Of a DNA stretch of 64,000 nucleotides, positions 15,802 to 60,815 are shown one piece after another (within the stretch, counting starts at the first letter, position 1; the number at the start of each line of letters is the position of its first letter). The position numbers and the translations under genes were made by a program. The notes beneath the pieces are model-generated. The model was given only the letters and a program-made list of their open reading frames with translations, had not been told where the DNA came from and ran no database searches. The stretch comes from Eledone cirrhosa (lineage: Eukaryota), in assembly GCA_964016885.1 (NCBI GenBank), contig OZ024740.1, positions 246,388,001 to 246,452,000 on the forward strand. The letters are read 5' to 3'.

Positions 15802-18800
15802 GATAGCAACTAACAGTGCTGCGATCGAATGTGGCTTTTTAGCCCAGCCAATGATCCAAAATGTCTTGCACAGAGTCGGCAACCAAAACATTTACTGGGA
15901 ATAGTCGGCTGTGGTTGGAGTTCGTTGTACTTTTGCATGTCGCTTGAGTCCTCCTGCTGATTTACATTCTCTACCACATGTTTGGCAAGCATGATGAGTA
16001 GCATCTCAACAGCAGCCTGGTAGTCAAACCACTGGTCTTACTTTATGACTGCGAAGATGACTTTCGAGTCCAGCTTTGCTTAGGCAGAGTCTCGCACAGA
16101 CGCTGCATGTCAGAAACATAGGAGGACCCTCGCCGTCTGGAAGTGCAACAGCAATACCCTTCCTCACGTCCCGCTTTACTTTCTCGTGTGCGATTCGAGA
16201 TGCCTCAAAGGCAACTTTTCCCTCATATACAGTCTTTCTCCATTTATTACGATCAGCAGCAATATTTTCCCATGTATCAGCAGAGATGTTAGCGTCTTTC
16301 AGAGAGGCCTTCAAGGAATCCTTATACCTCTTTTTTGTTTATGTGGCGGTCGTTTTCCTTTAACCAACTCTCATAGAAGAGTTGTTTTGGTATTCTAGAA
16401 TCCTTCATCCTGGCAAGGTGACCACTCCAACGGAGTCGCTGCTTAAGCACAAGAGCTTCTATACTGTCACACATAGAGCTTTCCAAAATCTCGACATCAC
16501 TGATGTGGTCCCTCCAGCGAACGCCATGTATCCGTCTGAGACACATCTGATGGAAACGCTCCAATTGCTTAAGGTGGCGTCGATATGTGACCCAGGTCTC
16601 GCAGGCATAAAGAAGACAAGAGAGTACACATGCCCTGTACACCTTTACCTTTGTCCTCCTGCATATGTCTCGCCGACCCCAGAGTCGCCTTTCTAGCTTT
16701 CCGAAAGCATCACTTGCTTTCCTAATCCTAAGTGAGATTTCACTGTCAAGGTTGCCGTATCGATTGACAGTGCTTCCCAGGTAGACAAACTGATCAACCA
16801 CTCCAAGTCGTTTGCCATACACATAGATGTTTGGTTCAGTGTACTGCCTACCAGGTGCAGGTTGGTACATGACGACGGTTTTCTTGAGACTGACAGTCAA
16901 ACCCAGGGCAGTGCAAGCGTCAGAAAATACATTCAAAATGTGCTGCATATCACTCTCTGTGTGCGCTACAAGATCGCAATCATCTGCATACAAGAGGTCT
17001 CTTATGACTGATGTAAATACTTTTGTCTTCGCAGCAAAGCGCCTGATGTTAAATATGCTGCCTGAGGTTCGATATCGGATGTAAACACCATGCTCGCAAT
17101 TCCTGAATGCAATACAGAAAACCATTGCAAAGTATATGGCAAACAGGGTCGGTGCTGGAATATCCCCCTGTTTCACTCCATTTTTTACTGAGATAGGCTC
17201 CGACACGTTACCTCCGACATTAACCCAAGCCTTCATGTCGTCATGGAAAGACCTAACTAAAGCAAGGAACTTATCAGGGCAACCAAGCTTCTGGAGAACC
17301 TTCCATAATGCATCTCTGTTGACAGTATCGAAAGCCTTTGTCAGATCGACAAAAACCTGATACAGATCCAAGCCCTGTTCAATACACTTCTCCTGGAGCT
17401 GTCTAGCTGAGAAGATCATATCAGTAGTGCCGCGTCCAACACGAAAACCAGATTGACTTTCAGGAAGGACACAATCTGCAATGTGTGTCAGCAGACGGTC
17501 CAGAAGCACCCTACATAAAACTTTCCCCACGACAGAAAGCAATGATATACCTCTGTAGTTCCCACAATCATTCCTGTTACCCTTTCCCTTGTACAAGACC
17601 ACCATTACTGCATCTCTCCAGTCCTCAGGCACGGATTCATTAGCCCATATCCTTCCAAACAGAGAGTGAAGATGTTGCAGGAGTCTCTCACCACCATATT
17701 GTAGGAGCTCAGCATGTATGCCATCCATACCTGGAGATCTTCCACTGTTCAGCTTCGAAATAGCCACTGCAACCTCCACAAGTGTCGGAGGCTCTGCGAG
17801 AGCTACTTTCACAGGACTTTCCGGAATGAGATTGAGGAAATCTTCACTGACGACAGACGGCTGATTCAAAAGATCATCAAAGTGCTCCCGCCACCTTCGT
17901 AGAATTCCCTGTGAGTCACGAAGAAGTTCTTTGCCATCCCTGCTGCGAATCGGTGTCACCAGAGAAGAAGACGGTCCATAAACCTCACGCAAGAGACTGT
18001 ACAACAGCTTTGTGTTATTGCAATCAGACGCAGTTTGTATCTCACCAGCCTTCTCACTCCACCACTGATCCTTCATCTGAGAAAGACTCCGCCTAACACG
18101 TGATTTTACATCCCTGAGCTCCTCATGCAACGTATTCCTCTCCTGTGGTCTTGCCGTCAAGTAGCGTGACAGAGCGCGCCTCTTATCAGCCAACAAGTCA
18201 TCTATATGCACATCTTTCTCATTAAACCAGTCCTGATGTTTTCTCTGCACCAATCCCAGAACACGTCTGCCTACATCATAAACCGACTTTTTAAGGGTCG
18301 GCCAATCCTCACCAAGATCTGCAGCCTGCATCTCTTCTTCCAATGTCCTCTTCACATTTTTATCCTTAAGACGAGCAGCATTCAATCTTTTGGGCAGGGT
18401 AACACCAGGAGCCCGGATTTTACGTTTGGTGATTAGATTCACTTTTGCGCGTACCAGGCGGTGGTCCGTCCAGCACTCAGCTCCACGAAGAACACGAACA
18501 CACCGCACATCCTGTCTGTCACGCATCCTGACTAGGACGTAGTCCAAAAGATGCCATTCCTTAGATGCAGGATGCATCCATGTGGTCTTGAATTTGTTCT
18601 TTTGTTGGAACATGGTGTTGGTAACACACAGATCCAGCTCCTCACACATCTGCAGCAAGAGCATACCATTGCTGTTACACTTTCCCACCCCATGCCTTCC
18701 GATTACATTCCATGTGTTAAAATCCCTACCCACTCTAGCATTAAAGTCACCAAGCACGATGACTTTGTCTGCCTGAGGGATATTTCTTAAAACACCTTTC

Positions 18801-19305
18801 AAGGCATGGTAAAAGGACAGTTTTTCTTCATCGACAGAATTCATAGTTGGAGCATACACACTCACCAGGGTAGCATATCTTCCCTTGTCCAGCGGAACTC
18901 TCATGGACATAAGACGCTCACTAATCCCCACTGGGAATTCTTCCAATTTATTCACCAGTACAGTCTTAACAGCAAATCCTACCCCAGCCTCTCTTCTGGT
19001 TCCTTCATCTCTTCCTTTCCAGAAGAATGTATATTCTCCACAAAATTCCGTAAGATGACCATCTCCAGCTAACCTCGTCTCAGACAAAGCCACGATGTCA
19101 AGATCGTAACGTCGAAGCTCCTTCGCAACAAGAGCAGTCCTTCGTTCAGGACGCTCCAAAGAATCCCTGTCAAGCAGCGTCCGTACGTTCCAGCAGCCAA
19201 GACTAAATGCCCTGTTTGGCTCTATTACAATGGCACGATGACGGGCGGGCCCAGGTTGTGATAACTTGGGGCCCCTGCCCTTATTGCCAATGATCTTTTT
19301 TGTTC
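15549..19305 (-). mobile_element. Near full-length RTE-clade LINE with C-terminal C2H2 fingers
   Basis: APE+RT ORF, frameshift near 16370, then fingers CSVCARLC..HLRSH, CQTCGREC..HAKV and CRLCARHF..HIRS; flanked by a ~139-bp direct duplication. Confidence 0.92.
16322..19290 (-). CDS. RTE ORF: AP endonuclease + reverse transcriptase
   Basis: [77 protein letters not shown]. The annotated extension to 21826 is microsatellite. Confidence 0.93.
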
Positions 19306-24782: not shown

Positions 24783-24860
<78 letters not shown>

Positions 24861-25040
24861 TCTGAGTTTTTCGAATATTAATAATAACATTCGATTCGTT
24901 TGCAATTATGCAAACAAGCCTCATTTTTATAGCCATGTCAGTAGAATGAACACTTCATTTTTGCTCTTGTGTTGGCATGTAAACAGAACTGCAGACACTA
25001 ATGTTTCTGGGTATCACCCTTCATCAGTACAGCTCACTGT

Positions 25041-25298
25041 ATCAGACAGCTAGTATTTGAACAGAAAAAAAAAACAGATAAAAAAAACAACATAATGATG
25101 GAATAAAGCTTACTTCTGTTATTTCTATTTTTTTATATGCCCAGTGCTGGAATTTGGTGTTGTTTTCTCATAAGCTACCACTGCTTTGAGAAAACAATAC
25201 CAAATTCCAACACTGAACATATAAAACAGAAGTAAGCTTTATTCCATCCTTATGTTTTTTCTGTTTTTTTTTTTCTTTTCAAATTCTAGCTGTCTGAT
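25041..25298. repeat. Imperfect foldback (~120-bp arms) abutting a hammerhead
   Basis: ATCAGACAGCTAG...TTTTCTCA pairs with TGAGAAAA...CTAGCTGTCTGAT. Confidence 0.8.
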
Positions 25299-25347
25299 GA
25301 GGTCATATCTGTTGTATAATAGTTACCACCGAAATATATATAACAGC
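25289..25347 (+). ncRNA. Type I hammerhead ribozyme
   Basis: GCTGT CTGATGA GGT...ACC GAAA TATATA TA ACAGC, followed by AATAAA. Confidence 0.8.
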
Positions 25348-25854
25348 GACTATGAATAAACGAGGTTAATTTTAACCTGTTGACTTATACTTCTTGTTTA
25401 TAAATATACTCCGGACTAAACAGACCTACCTGTTCACTTCGTCGAGTGCTCTACTCTGCATACTGAAGTGTCGGTAATTAACCAACACACACTCGAATTG
25501 ATTATATATATATATATGTAAATACATATTTAGGTGTTTAGGTTTAAGTAGGAGATATTTAATATATCAATATGCCAAAATGTTGTTTCTTGTAATCCGA
25601 AGAAATTCTATTGCAGTGTCAATTTTATAATACTCATTGCGTAAGTTGATCTTTTTTTGTGGGATTAGAAATCTTTTCTTCTTCTGTAAACCTGTTTACA
25701 ACCTAAAGTAACCGTAATTGAATATGATAAAAATAAATTAGTCCTCTGAAAGAGTCATTCACGCACATGCATATATGTATGTATATACACACAAACACAC
25801 ACACTTAGTGGTTAGCCCCAATTGAACCCGAGACTCATATATATGTATGTATAG

Positions 25855-26778
25855 GAACCTAACAGCCACTCTCTCCTTGTCCGGCATTCCTTTCGCTGCA
25901 TCTCCTCCAGCCTTGTCTACGGGCTTCGCTGCACGAAATGCGGTGTGACCTATGTCGGACAGATGAGAAGCCGTCTGGCCGACCGGTTCGCCGGGCACCT
26001 CCGCCTCGGCTCGTGCTCCCCCATCGCTCGACACCTGCTCAGCCGGGCATTCCACTCGCAACTTGACCGTCTGCGACCTGATAGAGTGCCCTGGAACCCC
26101 GGATGCCCGACTGAAGGTCGAGAAACGCACGATTTTCCGACTTCAGACATGCATCATCACCGGTTTGAACTCCCCACCCTATTTTCTTTAGCCTCCCCAC
26201 ACCCCACGACTGACACCACTAAACCACCATCGACCACCACCAACCCCTACCTACCACTAACTTTATTAACCTACCTAACCTACCTCCTCTTGCCTCCACC
26301 CCACCATCCCCACATTACCCCGCTCACCCACACACAACAATGTACATACACACACACCCTTTACCCCTACTAACGCGCTAACCTCTTCCCCCCACATCAC
26401 CAACAACCCACTCGCACCTTCCTCTCTCATTTCACCCCCCGCCTACTATGACCCCTAACCTCTACCGACATACACCCACACTTCGCACGCCACTAACACA
26501 ACTACCCCACTCACCCCCTCCACCACCCTCTAACCTACTAATAACACCACCCACCCACATCCACTTACCAGTAACCGACTAATCTCCCCACCCAGTCCCC
26601 CCACATCCACACCGTCTCTGTTTTTTTTTTGTTGCTTCCTTCCCTAATAACTATACCTCGTAGTTATTAACGCACTGTGGTGAGATGTACTGTCTTTAAT
26701 GCGTCGAAACATCAGACCCACAGTAGACAGCCGAAGAGCGGGATTGTCCTTATGTTTGTGTTTCTCTTACGTTTTCTA

Positions 26779-28567: not shown

Positions 28568-29560
28568 CAGCAACAACAGCAGCAATAACTGCAGCCACAG
28601 CAGTAGCAGCAACAACAGCAGCAATAACTGCAGCCACAGCAGTAGCAGCAACGACAGCAGCAACAACTGCAGCAACAGCACCAATAACTGCAGCCACAGC
28701 AGTAGCAGCAACGACAGCAGCAACAACTGCAGCAACAGCACCAATAACTGCAGCCACAGCAGTAGCAGCAACAACAGCAGCAACAACTGCAGCAACAGCA
28801 CCAATAACTGCAGCCACAGCAGTAGCAGCAACGACAGCAGCAACAACTGCAGCAACAGCACCAATAACTGCAGCCACAGCAGTAACAGCAACGACAGCAG
28901 CAACAACTGCAGCAACAGCACCAATAACTGCAGCCACAGCAGTAGCAGCAACGACAGCAGCAACAACTGCAGCAACAGCACCAATAACTGCAGCCACAGC
29001 AGTAGCAGCAACGACAGCAGCAACAACTGCAGCAACAGCACCAATAACTGCAGCCACAGCAGTAGCAGCAACGACAGCAGCAACAACTGCAGCAACAGCA
29101 CCAATAACTGCAGCCACAGCAGTAGCAGCAACGACAGCAGCAACAACTGCAGCAACAGTACCAATAACTGCAGCCACAGCAGTAGCAGCAACGACAGCAG
29201 CAATAACTGCAGCCACAGCAGTAGCAGCAACAACAGCAGCAATAACTGCAGCCACAGCAGTAGCAGCAACAACAGCAGCAACAACTGCAGCAACAGCAGC
29301 AATAACTGCAGCAACAACAGCAGCAACAACTGCAGCAACAGCAACAATAACTGCAGCAACAACAGCAGCAACAACTGCAGCAACAGTACCAATAACTGCA
29401 GCCACAGCAGTAGCAGCAACAACAGCAGCAACAACTGCAGCAACAGCAGCAATAACTGCAGCAACGACAGCAGCAACAACTGCAGCAACAGCACCAATAA
29501 CTGCAGCCACAGCAGTAGCAGCAACAACAGCAGCAACAACTGCAGCAACAGCAGCAATAA
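28568..29560. repeat. Trinucleotide-derived 60-bp minisatellite (CAG/CAA-rich)
   Basis: CCAATAACTGCAGCCACAGCAGTAGCAGCAACGACAGCAGCAACAACTGCAGCAACAGCA repeats in register every 60 bp from 28621 to 29160, with shuffled sub-units beyond. Confidence 0.95.
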
Positions 29561-29855: not shown

Positions 29856-31510
29856 AGCTGGCAATAGGTTCAGACCAGATGTAAGGAGTAGCCTCTCCTC
29901 TCCAACTAAAGCTGGCAATAAGTTCAGACCAGATGTAAAGTGTAGCCTCTCATCTCCAACTAAAGCTGGCAATAGGTTCAGACCAGATGTAAAGAGTAGC
30001 CTCTCCTCTCCAACTAAAGCTGGCAATAAGTTCAGACCAGATGTAAAGAGTAGCCTCTCCTCTCCAACTAAAGCTGGCAATAAGTTCAGACCAGATGTAA
30101 AGTGTAGCCTGTCCTCTCCAACTAAAGCTGGCAATAGGTTCAGACCAGATGTAAAGTGTAACCTCTCCTCTCCAACTAAAGCTGGCAATAAGTTCAGACC
30201 AGATGTAAAGTGTAGCCTCTCATCTCCAACTAAAGCTGGCAATAGGTTCAGACCAGATGTAAAGTGTAACCTCTCCTCTCCAACTAAAGCTGGCAATAGG
30301 TTCAGACCAGACGTAAAGTGTAGCCTCTCCTCTCCAACTAAAGCTGGCAATAAGTTCAGACCAGATGTAAAGTGTAACCTCTCCTCTCCAACTAAAGCTG
30401 GCAATAGGTTCAGACCAGATGTAAGGAGTAACCTCTCCTCTCCAACTAAAGCTGACAATAGGTTCAGACCAGATGTAAAGTGTAGCCTCTCCTCTCCAAC
30501 TAAAGCTGGCAATAGGTTCAGACCAGATGTAAAGAGTAGCCTCTCCTCTCCAACTAAAGCTGGCAATAGGTTCAGACCAGATGTAAAGTGTAGCCTCTCC
30601 TCTCCAACTAAAGCTGGCAATAGGTTCAGACCAGACGTAAAGTGTAGCCTCTCCTCTCCAACTAAAGCTGGCAATAAGTTCAGACCAGATGTAAAGTGTA
30701 ACCTCTCCTCTCCAACTAAAGCTGGCAATAGGTTCAGACCAGATGTAAGGAGTAACCTCTCCTCTCCAACTAAAGCTGGCAATAGGTTCAGACCAGACGT
30801 AAAGTGTAGCCTCTCCTCTCCAACTAAAGCTGGCAATAGGTTCAGACCAGATGTAAAGAGTAGCCGCTCCTCTCCAACTAAAGCTGGCAATAGGTTCAGA
30901 CCAGATGTAAGGAGTAACCTCTCCTCTCCAACTAAAGCTGGCAATAGGTTCAGACCAGACGTAAAGTGTAGCCTCTCCTCTCCAACTAAAGCTGGCAATA
31001 GGTTCAGACCAGATGTAAAGAGTAGCCGCTCCTCTCCAACTAAAGCTGGCAATAGGTTCAGACCAGATGTAAGGAGTAGCCTCTCCTCTCCAACTAAAGC
31101 TGGCAATAGGTTCAGACCAGATGTAAGGAGTAGCCTCTCCTCTCCAACTAAAGCTGGCAATAGGTTCAGACCAGACGTAAAGTGTAGCCTCTCCTCTCCA
31201 ACTAAAGCTGGCAATAGGTTCAGACCAGATGTAAAGAGTAGCCTCTCGTCTCCAACTAAAGCTGGCAATAGGTTCAGACCAGAAGTAAAGTGTAACCTCT
31301 CCTCTCCAACTAAAGCTGGCAATAGGTTCAGCCCAGATGTAAAGAGTAGCCTCTCCTCTCCAACTAAAGCTGGCAATAAGTTCAGACCAGATGTAAAGTG
31401 TAACCTCTCCTCTCCAACTAAAGCTGGCAATAGATTCAGACCAGATGTAAAGAGTAGCCTCTCCTCTCCAACTAAAGCTGGCAATAGGTTCAGACCAGAC
31501 GTAAAATTAA
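29856..31510. repeat. 54-bp minisatellite, about 30 copies
   Basis: AGCTGGCAATAGGTTCAGACCAGATGTAAAGTGTAGCCTCTCCTCTCCAACTAA tandem array; diverged units continue to ~31680. Confidence 0.97.
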
Positions 31511-32299
31511 CCTCCCTATCCAAAGACAGCTGGCAATACGCCCGAGCCAGATGTAAAGTGTAGCCTTCCAACCCCAACCGGAGCTGGCAATACCCCAGAT
31601 CAGATGTAAAATATATCCAGATCAGATAAAAAAGTAGCACTCACAACAAATTTAGTAACAGGCCCAAGTTAGATGTAAAATGTCGGTTTCATTTCAAACT
31701 ACTCATTAAGTATTTGTCTTCAGAGCTAAATATATATGATTCATGTATGGGTACGTATAATGTACACGTGCTTTTTTTCCATGGCCTCAGCTATCATGAT
31801 CATGATCATTGTCACCAACACCACCTATCGTATATAAAGTTATCATATGTAGTTCCTAATTTGGACAGAGACTGTTGTCAGTTGCCATATAGCCGTCAAT
31901 TTGACGGAGTTCAAGAGATACATTATTCAATTCTCTGTAGTAGCTGCTGGTCACATATTTTCAGTTCTAATGATATATATATATGTCATTAATTAGAGCC
32001 CCCCATTTTTTGCTTTGTATGCAAACGAGCTTCGTTAGCCGATGTTCATAAGCATAAAAACTAAAAGCTTTTAGCTAATTTTCGTCTTAGCATCCAAGTT
32101 GAGTTAGACGCTCTGACAACGGTTAAAGAATCAGAAACGGTACCATCAGGGTGCTCTCACTTGGTTGCTAAAATTCATAGTGAGGTCACAAAGATCCTTT
32201 CTCAACGAGTGAAACAATATCACAAACGCATGAGGAAAGAGAAAGGATCTTCAATACTCACATAATGATGTGGACTAACATCTTAATACCAAGTAGACG

Positions 32300-48918: not shown

Positions 48919-48999
48919 GCCCTTACCGCGGTTTCAGATCCCAAACAAATAGATAATCCAAGCGGATTTCCATTGAGAAAGAGATCATCGTCAGAAGGC
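48919..48999 (-). ncRNA. Type I hammerhead ribozyme
   Basis: GCCTT CTGACGA T-GATCT...GGATC-T GAAA CCGCGG TA AGGGC. Confidence 0.8.
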
Positions 49000-49149
49000 T
49001 TTTCTCTCTCGGAGAATATAAAATTCCCGAGTTCAAATTACAGACTGGTGCTATTCAGAACTGCCTCAGAATGAGAGTAAATGAATGATGAAACAATTTC
49101 TTTATGGTACCATGTGCAAAGACAAAAGTACGGTGGACAGGTCAATTCC

Positions 49150-49705: not shown

Positions 49706-50556
49706 CAGGGTGCGGACGATATCTGTTCGGAAGATTATTGCCTAGGAAAATATAATACAGTAGTTTTATTTTTTAAGATATATTTATCAAACTTGGGTCA
49801 GTTTGTCTTCATGACTTGTTCTTTCGATCTCACTCGATAAACCCGCCATTGGCTTTGATGACGGCCTCGGAACTGGCTACAGGCCTTCGTCACTGTCCCC
49901 CGACTTAAGCCCCTAAAGGCACTTGTGATCCTGGCCTTCAGATCGTCTTTCGTATTGCAGCTAGATCTGTTGGTGTCTCGTTCCACTGCGCCCCACACAA
50001 AGAAGTCGAGGGGGTTGCAGTCAGGCGAGCTGGGAGGCCAGATGTCAGGTGAAGTGTGGTCGACGAAGTTCTCTGACAGCCAGGCTTGGGTCTTTCGGCT
50101 GGTATGGCAGGGCGCTGAGTCTTGCTGCCACACGTACGGCCTACCTGCAGCTACCTGGTCGATCCAGGGCTTTACTACCTCGCTCAGAACGCGGATGTAG
50201 CCATCGGTGTTCAGCTTGAGGCCCTCAGGGAAGAAGTGAGGTGGCATGACGTCACCTTGACTGCTGACGACACCTAAGACCAATGTTGTCGCTGGAAACT
50301 TTGTCTGCATGACTCTGGGCACATCTTTGGATGAGACAGCGAGTCACCTGTTGTTCTGGCAGTTGGTCTTCTGGTCTTATTTGTCCTCCCGGCGCGGATT
50401 CCAAGAAGAACTGAGTGTCTCTTCCACAAATTTGGAGGTTCAAAATTATTCATAATCAATTATTCTGAAAATAAATAATGGAAATATAATCACTGTTTTT
50501 ATGAAGACAAGAGTGACAACGGAAGTAAATAAAATTTGCATAATATCATCCGCACC

Positions 50557-50559
<3 letters not shown>
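49706..50559 (-). mobile_element. Internally deleted Tc1/mariner transposon, DD37D (maT) family
   Basis: TIRs CAGGGTGCGGAYGATAT, flanking TA; VWQQDSAPCH...WPPSSPDCNPLDFFVWG with 37 residues between the two Asp. Confidence 0.9.
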
Positions 50560-50603
<44 letters not shown>

Positions 50604-55463: not shown

Positions 55464-55568
<105 letters not shown>

Positions 55569-55578
55569 CATATATATA

Positions 55579-56144
55579 TAAATTGATGAGCAGAACAAAC
55601 AAACATTAAATAATCCTTTAAATAAATTAAAAAATGATTTAAATATCTACCTGTTCATAATGCTATTACCGGCGGTTTCCATTTACAAAAGATTAGAAAT
55701 TCAGAGAATTTCCAACAGAAAGTAAACTTCATCAGATAGCTATTTCCTTTCTATAGGACTTACGCCCCACGGTCTGCAAATATAATGCCAACTACCAGCT
55801 CGTATGAGTTATGGCCGTTAAAGTGACCCACACGTGAACCGGCCGCTAGTGAAAGCGGGAATATTACAGACTTGTTGATGGCTTTGCTGCTAAAAAAATA
55901 GCAGTAAGCAACAACGAATTTTTTCTCTAAATAGATTGGAGAATATATAAAAATGAGGTAAATATCTCACTGAGTACTAAGTACCCATAGAGATATATAG
56001 GGTGTCTATAATATAATTGTTGTTCTATGGTACTAATTCGAGATACCAGAACTATAAAAATTGATGAGCAGAACAAACAAACATTAAATAATCCTTTAAA
56101 TAAATTAAAAAATGATTTAAATATCTACCTGTTCATAATGCTAT
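55579..56144 (-). mobile_element. Non-coding 478-bp monomer plus ~85-bp terminal direct repeat with a hammerhead (retrozyme-like family 2, second member)
   Basis: 55579-55666 is repeated at 56057-56144; shares CCGTTAAAGTGAC and CTAATTCGAGATACCAGAAC with 11324-11859. Confidence 0.82.
55662..55740 (-). ncRNA. Type I hammerhead ribozyme with extended stem II
   Basis: GCTAT CTGATGA AGTTTAC..TTGGAAATTC-TCT-GAATTTCTAA..GTAAATG GAAA CCGCCGG TA ATAGC. Confidence 0.85.
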
Positions 56145-56532
56145 ATATATATTTATATATATATATAATTATGTAATAAACCACATAAGATATTTTTTTC
56201 ATTTACCAGTGGTTTCTTGAAAGCAAACAAAATTTGCTTTCAGTCATCAGAATGAAAAAATCGTGGTGTATTTATTGACAGTGGATTTTAAAAACAAAAA
56301 TATAATCTATATGAAAGTGAGGCTGGAAAAGGAAGAAGGAAAGGAAAAAGAATAAGTATAAAAGTAGATAAACACACATGCACACACACATATACATACA
56401 CACATATATACATATATACATACACACATATATACACATACACATATATATATATATACATATACATACATACACATATATATACATATCCATACACACA
56501 GATACACACAAATACACAAACACACACACATG

Positions 56533-59941: not shown

Positions 59942-60815
59942 CTATTGGGGTGATAACCCGTTTAGTTTTGGTTTAAATTTGTTAAGGAATAGATTTTCTT
60001 TGTTTATTCTTTGTTGCTGTGTGAACGAATCTGAGCACTTGTAGAAGGGGAAGATTTTAAAGTTGAGTAGTGTCATTCCTGCGCAGTTCGCAATATGGCT
60101 GCTCAAGGGGATTTTTCTTGTGTTAGCGTCCCAGATTTGTTGGCGGTGGATGGTCATTCTTTTGCGTAATGAGGTGCCCGTCTGTCCTATGTAGTTGTGT
60201 TTGCACCCACCGCAAGTTATTGCGTAAATCAAGTTCTCCGAGTTGCAGGTGAAATTGTTTTTTACTGTAAATGTTTGGCCATCTTTAAATGTAAATGTTT
60301 GTCCTTCAGTGAGGTAGAGGCACGTTCCACAGTTTGTTCTACCACATTTGGTAACTGTAGGGTTGAGGATTGGTTTGGGTATATTTGGTCCAGTGAGAAT
60401 GCGTTTTAGTGATTTGGGTTGTCTTTTACTTTTAAGGATCTTGTGTGTTTCAAGAATAGACTTCATTTTTACATCTTTAAGTAAGATAGGAAGGTTTTTG
60501 TGTAGGTGATCAAACATTTCGGTATTTCTGGGGTTGAAAGTGGATACATATGGCAGGGTGTTGAGTGTGGTTTTCTGTTTTGGATGGGGATTTAGGTGTT
60601 TTGCCCTGTCTATTCCATTGTTGATTATTTCAAGTGGAAAGGCTCTTTTAGTTCCTTTAGTCTTTGCTCTCGTTTAAGTGGATCTGATACTATGGTACAT
60701 ATACGTTTGGCCAAATTGTAAGGAATGTTAAGTTTTGTATGTTTTGGGTGACTTGATGTGAAAAAGAGGTATTGCTTGGAATACTCATTCTTTGATGTAT
60801 TCAATGAACCTTGTT
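59942..60815 (-). mobile_element. Penelope-like element 3' part with GIY-YIG endonuclease
   Basis: QYLFFTSSHPKHTKLNIPYNLAKR; KCGRTNCGTC..FTCNSENLIYAITCGGCKHNYIGQTG..LRKRMTIH..FKPKLN. Confidence 0.9.

What the first reader, a model, noticed from the sequence alone, without database searches (positions are those of the whole stretch)
55579..56144. Element boundary falls at the predicted ribozyme cleavage site and the insert is longer than one monomer
Seen: on the minus strand the insert begins ATAGCATTATGAACAGG at 56144, which is exactly the sequence 3' of the predicted cut (CGGTA^ATAGC). It runs one full 478-nt unit through the hammerhead and continues ~85 nt into the next unit. The 11.3-kb copy has the same layout but starts ~8 nt further in. 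Inference: reverse transcription of a self-cleaved or circular RNA with more than one pass. Caveat: the flanking TA repeat makes the last ~3 nt of the boundary ambiguous.
Basis: partly seen in the sequence, partly recalled or inferred. Interest (0 to 1): 0.75.

Follow-up and report, generated by a model that had tools for sequence, protein, structure and literature searches.

The report
Hammerhead retrozyme inserted in TA microsatellite
A 566-base non-coding mobile repeat with a hammerhead (self-cutting RNA) motif starts within a few bases of its predicted cut site and runs 1.18 units; it is likely an ordinary animal retrozyme moved by Penelope-like enzymes, and the start position, seen in only two copies, would fit copying of a self-cut linear RNA better than rolling round a circle.

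Summary
The minus-strand insert 56144-55579 is one 478-nt unit plus an exact 87-nt direct repeat, between (TA)n runs. It has a type I hammerhead fold, and its 5' end lies at +1 to +4 of the predicted cut. A 70%-identical copy (11862-11325) starts at +6 to +9 and ends at the same place (+81 to +86). Contigs of public runs show a multi-copy family with more 3' ends into (TA)n at about +87 and +92, and inverted joints. This is a non-LTR retrozyme (a non-autonomous Penelope-like element), a known kind. The fixed 3' end fits the internal start of reverse transcription shown for a lizard Penelope-like element, 85-92 nt past its hammerhead cut. The tie between 5' end and cut rests on two copies (chance about 4e-4, post hoc). 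The laid reads neither confirmed nor refuted it. Another hammerhead family in the window runs through two cut sites. A long hairpin that begins 1-10 nt inside both 5' ends is a real rival. Cutting, transcription and circles were not tested.

The parts
55579..56144 (-). Whole insert (copy e1): 478-nt non-coding unit plus 87-nt direct terminal repeat, 34% GC
   Evidence: longest ATG frame on the doubled unit 25 aa sense, 58 aa antisense
56058..56144 (-). 5' copy of the terminal repeat (+1 to +87 from the predicted cut); first 3 nt shared with the TA flank
55580..55666 (-). 3' copy of the terminal repeat ('tail', +1 to +87); ends in a T-rich stretch at the TA flank
55662..55740 (-). Type I hammerhead motif: helix I 5 bp, CUGAUGA core, long interrupted helix II, short helix III, GUA cut predicted at 55667/55666
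56068..56134 (-). Long imperfect hairpin +11 to +77 in the 5' repeat
   Evidence: the 87-nt repeat folds at -19.7 kcal/mol, z -4.3, 0 of 300 shuffles as good
55590..55656 (-). Same hairpin in the 3' repeat; likely signal next to the start of reverse transcription (inferred)
56022..56052 (-). Second small hairpin +93 to +123, strongly conserved between e1 and e2
55466..55578 (.). (TA)n microsatellite, 3' flank (target)
   Evidence: 55466-55580, 57.5 copies
56145..56167 (.). Short (TA)n 5' flank, which separates e1 from the 3' end of another hammerhead-bearing element
11325..11862 (-). Second family member (e2): 457-nt unit + 81-nt repeat, hammerhead 11486-11406, predicted cut 11411/11410, 5' end at +6 to +9, in (TA)-rich repeats
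59942..60673 (-). 3' remnant of a Penelope-like ORF (CxxC linker, GIY-YIG): shows that such machinery exists or existed in this genome; not shown to be the partner
   Evidence: no DNA similarity of its 3' flank to e1/e2 beyond shuffles

Best explanation
The insert is a non-coding, hammerhead-bearing repeat (a non-LTR retrozyme) that was likely copied into a TA microsatellite by the enzymes of a Penelope-like retrotransposon, probably from a linear RNA whose 5' end was made by self-cleavage. Shown: the anatomy, the hammerhead fold with paired variation, (TA)n flanks, a fixed 3' end just past a long hairpin, and a multi-copy family. Inferred steps: (1) a tandem master copy with at least two hammerheads is transcribed; (2) the upstream hammerhead cuts and leaves a 5'-OH end at +1, while the next stays uncut (or the cut monomer's ends are held together by helix I and crossed once); (3) the GIY-YIG nuclease nicks (TA)n and the RT starts inside the RNA at about +85 to +92, on a UUUUAUA stretch that can pair with the TA end; (4) the RT copies 87 nt, the hammerhead and the rest of the unit, and runs off at +1; (5) 5' joining by microhomology loses 0-8 nt. 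The product has one complete hammerhead, so on its own it would not release a monomer.
For: Both family members with visible ends start at +1 to +9: 3.7e-4 if stops were uniform on a circle, 1.1e-2 if uniform within the terminal repeat. Their repeats are copy-specific, so the events are independent. TA/AT microhomology is no richer near +1 than elsewhere: 2 of 41 ATA/TAT sites lie in +1 to +10 of e1, 0 of 29 in e2. 3' ends: e1 +85 to +87, e2 +81 to +86; in public contigs, 3 contigs end at +92 into (TA)n, and a 7-contig loose-end consensus reaches (TA)n at about +87 (median loose length 15, so not all of them do). In the lizard element PAc the cut is at ORF position +26 and RT starts at 111-118, i.e. 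85-92 nt past the cut by my subtraction (PMC11167929). Penelope copies flanked by direct tail repeats are described (PMC2377424). Retrozymes as non-autonomous Penelope-like sequences: bioRxiv 10.64898/2026.07.22.740005. For R2, ribozyme cleavage at the element's 5' end goes with variable, microhomology-primed 5' junctions (PMC3774820 abstract). Family-level inverted joints (55747/55917, 55809/56029) are a Penelope trait (PMC8557442). A GIY-YIG remnant whose relatives are about 750-aa RT+GIY-YIG proteins lies 3.8 kb away.
Against: Only two 5' ends were seen, and the chance figure is post hoc. In one search none of the 24 loose-end rows shown lies at the cut (146 rows were not shown). RAD read depth is flat across the cut (X8 89, 92, 88; X9 57, 61, 66), although those libraries begin at AATT sites and are a poor test. 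The rise of contig depth 3' of the cut (X1 4.6k to 28k, X2 6.0k to 20k) also holds at +87 to +120 and follows conservation between e1 and e2 (Spearman 0.61 and 0.67), so it is not evidence of a pile-up. The unrelated 469-nt hammerhead element at 6280-7544 runs through two cut sites and ends at -148. For PAc, hammerhead cleavage was not needed for insertion in vitro and no RNA reads began or ended at the cut. Other hammerhead elements here end +37 to +301 past their cuts, so the 85-92 match may be coincidence. No tandem master of this family and no shared sequence with an autonomous element was seen.
Confidence: 0.45

Rival explanations
1. Hairpin-defined ends: the same retrozyme and Penelope enzymes, but both ends are set by the +11 to +77 hairpin (a protein-binding or nuclease-resolution signal, like the Penelope 'tail'), and the closeness to the hammerhead cut is incidental because the hairpin starts 10 nt after the cut.
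For: Both ends of both copies lie 1-11 nt outside the hairpin. e2 starts nearer the hairpin foot than the cut. The 469-nt, 25.0-kb and 56.2-kb elements also end just 3' of predicted hairpins. Tails are ascribed to nuclease-mediated resolution (PMC8557442), and direct tail repeats flank some Penelope copies.
Against: e1 keeps G+4 and C+5 of helix I and matches back to +1 exactly, 7-10 nt beyond the hairpin foot. The e2 repeat folds only modestly better than shuffles (z -1.9, 12 of 300).
Confidence: 0.25
2. Circular template (first reader; published retrozyme model): the monomer is ligated into a circle, the RT starts at about +87, goes round once, displaces its own cDNA and stops near the ligation junction at the second crossing.
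For: Animal retrozymes make abundant circles, and tandem cDNA from circles is the proposed route (PMC7229834; PMC4209133). The unit folds well as a circle (-128.5 kcal/mol, z -7.1 against 40 shuffles). The internal junction is perfect in both copies. The 469-nt element passes two cut sites.
Against: A covalent circle gives no reason to pass the junction once and stop at it the second time in 2 of 2 copies (3.7e-4 under uniform stops) unless the junction stalls the RT. No solo +1 to +87 insert was found in the 64 kb. The unrelated unit e3 folds as well or better, so folding does not discriminate.
Confidence: 0.2
3. Coincidence: 5' ends are ordinary random truncations of Penelope-type partial tandems, and two happened to land near the cut.
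For: n=2; Penelope-like insertions are variably 5'-truncated; inverted joints in this family lie at unit positions 398/228 and 336/116, away from the cut.
Against: Probability 3.7e-4 to 1.1e-2 depending on the null; no excess of TA microhomology near +1.
Confidence: 0.1

Closest known systems
Metazoan non-LTR retrozymes (Cervera and de la Pena 2020, PMC7229834; Li, Clavereau and Pollet 2026, bioRxiv 10.64898/2026.07.22.740005)
   Same: Non-coding, AT-rich unit of a few hundred bases with one type I hammerhead, a short helix III, a highly self-paired predicted circle, many dispersed copies, and Penelope-like elements in the same genome.
   Different: The unit is 478 nt (above the 150-450 of the 2020 paper, inside the 51-972 of the preprint). 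Helix II is very long and starts with a mismatch; Rfam does not score it. This copy has only 1.18 units and one hammerhead. In the parts I read, neither paper maps copy ends relative to the cut.
Penelope-like elements with C-terminal GIY-YIG (Penelope/Poseidon, Neptune), e.g. PAc of Anolis (PMC11167929) and D. virilis Penelope (PMC2377424)
   Same: Fixed 3' end about 85-92 nt past a hammerhead cut, next to a stem-loop; AT-rich or (TA)n targets; direct terminal 'tail' repeats; partial tandems and inverted 5' joints.
   Different: No ORF. The repeat is 87 nt, against 30-40 nt tails. The 3' end has TA microhomology, whereas PAc initiated at a site not homologous to the cut DNA. PAc showed no RNA ends at the cut. 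No sequence link to an autonomous partner was found.
R2 retrotransposons with a 5' HDV-like ribozyme (PMC3774820)
   Same: Precedent for a ribozyme cut that sets the 5' junction of genomic copies, with small microhomology-driven variation.
   Different: Different ribozyme class, autonomous, site-specific in 28S rDNA, no terminal repeat.

Membership tests
Non-LTR retrozyme | Type I hammerhead in the unit | tested here: met
   Core, three helices and GUA triplet; paired variation of helices I and II in three copies. No Rfam match.
Non-LTR retrozyme | Non-coding unit of a few hundred bases, GC below 50% | tested here: met
   478 nt, 34% GC; longest ATG frame 25/58 aa
Non-LTR retrozyme | Many genomic copies | tested here: met
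   2 copies in 64 kb; 495 and 463 contigs, 417 and 367 reads laid at >=85% in 4 of 4 runs, with many variants (X1 and X2 are one sample)
Non-LTR retrozyme | Tandem arrays with at least two hammerheads (the 'active' form) | tested here: inconclusive
   e1 and e2 each carry one hammerhead, so they fall in the monomer class of the preprint; no listed contig spans two units; no assembly was held
Non-LTR retrozyme | Highly self-paired predicted circle | tested here: met
   z -7.1 (e1), -4.4 (e2) against 40 dinucleotide shuffles; prediction only
Non-LTR retrozyme | Self-cleavage and expression as linear and circular RNA | not testable with these tools
   No bench test; no RNA holder listed
Non-LTR retrozyme | No primer-binding site or polypurine tract (unlike plant LTR retrozymes) | not tested
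   Not searched for; the hammerhead is type I, not type III
Penelope-like insertion product (non-autonomous) | Microsatellite/AT-rich target, fixed 3' tail, partial tandem, inverted 5' joints | tested here: met
Penelope-like insertion product (non-autonomous) | Sequence shared with the pLTR of an autonomous element | tested here: inconclusive
   No similarity above shuffles to the 3' flank of the one GIY-YIG remnant or to three other hammerhead elements in the window; the rest of the genome was not available
Autonomous Penelope-like element | RT + GIY-YIG ORF | tested here: not met
   No ORF in the unit

The most novel reading that the evidence does not exclude
Across this family, 5' ends of genomic copies pile up at the hammerhead cut while 3' ends sit at a fixed internal start site, so each copy is a fossil of a self-cleaved linear (or nicked, helix I-clamped) RNA template. 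That would be direct genomic evidence that the hammerhead sets the end of the template for Penelope-type reverse transcription in vivo, and that retrozymes need not move through covalent circles.
Probability: 0.4. Interest if true: 0.58.

Novelty: new member of a known kind. Interest (0 to 1): 0.32.

Why it matters
The element itself is one more animal retrozyme. What hammerheads do for Penelope-like elements is stated to be unclear (PMC8557442), and the circle-template model is a proposal. Young retrozyme copies in (TA)n with two readable ends make that question testable by simple counting in one assembly: a wall of 5' ends at +1 means a cleaved linear template, a spread means a circle or uncut multimer, a peak near +10 means a hairpin signal.

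Tried and rejected
Whole-genome copy census: no genome is held for this window. Pattern scans for more copies: 0 hits in metagenome, viral and prokaryote-genome contigs with a 21-nt conserved motif; a 20-nt hammerhead-junction motif gave 4 metagenome loci with no similarity beyond the motif, taken as chance. Rfam: no hammerhead match. No RNA holder listed among 10 runs. Molecule ends in the RAD runs: 12 of 12 listed places coincide with AATT sites (5 more not shown), so they say nothing on element ends. Contig depth as a boundary signal: rejected, confounded with conservation. The 56077-to-55600 joint follows from the stretch chosen and is not evidence of tandem arrays or circles. Host: a LINE protein search gave no useful name; named relatives of the GIY-YIG remnant include oyster and mussel proteins; a SINE-like repeat near 12.3 kb recalls octopus repeats, from memory only. 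A viroid-like or coding circular replicon was rejected: no ORF, 70% divergent genomic copies, microsatellite targets. The supplement of PMC7229834 (its model figure S9) could not be read and may bear on whether copy ends were mapped before.

Full report
Observation. On the minus strand, 56144-55579 is a 566-nt insert between a short (TA)n run (56145-56167) and a 115-nt (TA)n run. Its best period is 478, and the last 87 nt repeat the first 87 exactly. The unit junction is a type I hammerhead motif: helix I GCTAT/ATAGC, core CTGATGA, a 49-nt helix II region opened by an A-G mismatch, GAAA, a short helix III and GUA, with the cut predicted at 55667/55666. The 5' copy matches the internal copy from +1, and the bases before it are TA repeat, so the boundary is +1 to +4. 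The second copy (11862-11325, 70% identical) has a 457-nt unit, an 81-nt repeat at 96%, a 5' end at +6 to +9 and a 3' end at +81 to +86.

Is the hammerhead real? A relaxed scan found 8 motifs in the window against 0-1 in each of 20 block shuffles. Three related motifs (55735, 11481, 48994) keep helix I and helix II paired through different sequences (GCTAT/ATAGC, GCTGT/ACAGC, GCCTT/AGGGC). Rfam does not score it; the long helix II is the likely reason. Cleavage is predicted, not shown.

Anatomy of the repeat. The 87-nt repeat is mostly one long imperfect hairpin (+11 to +77; z -4.3 in e1, -1.9 in e2), followed by a T-rich stretch where the element joins (TA)n. A second conserved hairpin follows at +93 to +123. 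The unit has no ORF and folds well as a circle (z -7.1, 40 shuffles).

Context. The window is a repeat-rich animal sequence with LINE ORFs and a GIY-YIG remnant at 60673-59942, whose longer relatives are about 750-aa RT+GIY-YIG proteins, i.e. Penelope-like. Four more hammerhead-bearing elements lie in the window. The host was not identified by any search.

More copies. No assembly is held and collection scans were empty or chance. Ten runs were listed, none on record as RNA; four were laid on a permuted monomer. The family is multi-copy and diverse (495 and 463 contigs from one sample; 417 and 367 RAD reads). Further 3' ends into (TA)n appear at +92 (3 contigs) and about +87 (consensus of 7 contigs, median loose length 15). 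Inverted joints occur away from the cut. For 5' ends the call was inconclusive: none of the 24 loose-end rows shown lies at the cut (146 not shown), the 12 listed molecule ends are all AATT sites, RAD depth is flat across the cut, and the 3- to 6-fold rise of contig depth just 3' of the cut also holds at +87 to +120 and tracks conservation (Spearman 0.61, 0.67).

How strong is the boundary signal? The two insertions are independent, since each has its own repeat sequence. Both 5' ends within 9 nt of the cut has probability 3.7e-4 if stops are uniform round the unit and 1.1e-2 if uniform within the repeat. TA microhomology is not concentrated there. The figure is post hoc and n is 2. An unrelated family (6280-7544; 469-nt unit, 1.96 units plus an inverted copy) passes two cut sites and ends at -148, so the rule is not general for hammerhead elements in this genome.

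Mechanism. Most likely (0.45): a Penelope-like protein nicks (TA)n, starts reverse transcription inside the RNA just past the hairpin, reads through one uncut (or clamped) hammerhead junction and runs off the 5'-OH end left by self-cleavage; joining trims 0-8 nt. Internal initiation is shown for the lizard element PAc at ORF positions 111-118, with the hammerhead cut at +26, i.e. 85-92 nt past the cut, the same distance as here; other elements in the window end +37 to +301 past their cuts, so the match may be chance. Against this reading, PAc needed no cleavage in vitro and showed no RNA ends at the cut. That the element is a non-autonomous retrozyme moved by Penelope-like enzymes is about 0.9 under all four.

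Comparison with what is known. It works like, and meets the testable features of, a non-LTR retrozyme (monomer class) and a non-autonomous Penelope-type insertion. Tandem masters, a shared pLTR, cleavage and circles were not shown. Papers seen: bioRxiv 10.64898/2026.07.22.740005, parts 1-3 of 5, abstract to discussion; PMC11167929, parts 1-2 of 4, the main text; PMC7229834, parts 2-4 of 6, results and discussion, supplement unreadable; PMC4209133, parts 1-2 of 4; PMC8557442, passages and section 6; PMC6765202, passages; PMC2377424, passages; PMC3774820, abstract. In these, and in the listings of seven searches, I saw no mapping of retrozyme copy ends to the hammerhead cut. The library lacks most subscription papers, and supplements I could not see may hold such a map. 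Look-ups of earlier findings by place, sequence and narrow words were empty; a broad word search listed other retrozymes.

Verdict. A real, ordinary retrozyme copy with one suggestive feature. New member of a known kind; interest 0.32. If the 5' pile-up at the cut holds genome-wide (probability 0.4), it would bear on an open mechanistic question and deserve about 0.58.

Noticed in passing
window 56160-56370 (-), hammerhead core 56250, predicted cut 56204/56203: A second, unrelated hammerhead with the same GAAA-CC-NNN-GG-TA helix III sits just upstream of e1; its element ends about 37 nt past the cut. A read-through transcript cut at both motifs would release a 537-nt chimeric RNA (59 nt of neighbour tail and TA, plus the 478-nt unit), a possible route to new families.
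   Followed up: partly
window 6280-7544: Young 469-nt hammerhead repeat: 1.96 units on the minus strand (99.6% identical) plus a head-to-head inverted copy, in (TA)n; three hammerheads with a GUU triplet and palindromic helix III; circle fold z -10. It holds a full cut-to-cut monomer, so it could be an active master. Its two 3' ends differ by about 70 nt that contain a hairpin.
   Followed up: partly
window 48923-49020 (-): Hammerhead related to e1/e2 (long helix II); similarity stops about 6 nt past the cut, where LINE-like sequence follows. A 30-nt stretch at 49349-49320 recurs at 48449-48420 inside that LINE-like sequence; unexplained.
   Followed up: partly
window 24855-25520: Two opposed hammerhead motifs (minus strand core 25027, cut 24993; plus strand about 25290-25345 with a 3-bp helix II), ending in (TA)n: likely a rearranged Penelope-like remnant.
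   Followed up: partly
window 25855-26373 (+): Frame that reads like a decayed GIY-YIG region by eye; no Pfam match at E<=0.01.
   Followed up: partly
window 947-4039 (+), 16322-19300 (-), 12970-14601 (+): Long open LINE-type ORFs (endonuclease + RT); the 12970 frame has RT followed by a PHD finger match.
   Followed up: no
window 29856-31610 and 28609-29382: 54-bp minisatellite (32.6 copies, 93% match) and a 60-bp CAG/CAA-rich array.
   Followed up: no
window 49745-50560: About 820-nt element between TA runs with terminal inverted repeats (TACAGGGTGCGGA...) and transposase-like remnants by eye: likely a Tc1/mariner-type DNA transposon (label recalled, not tested).
   Followed up: no
unit positions +104 to +137 (window 56008-56041): Contig depth halves between +104-120 and +121-137 in both X1 and X2, just past the second hairpin and at a TA-rich stretch. 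This could mark a second 3' end about 40 nt past the first, like the two start sites of PAc, but conservation also drops there.
   Followed up: no
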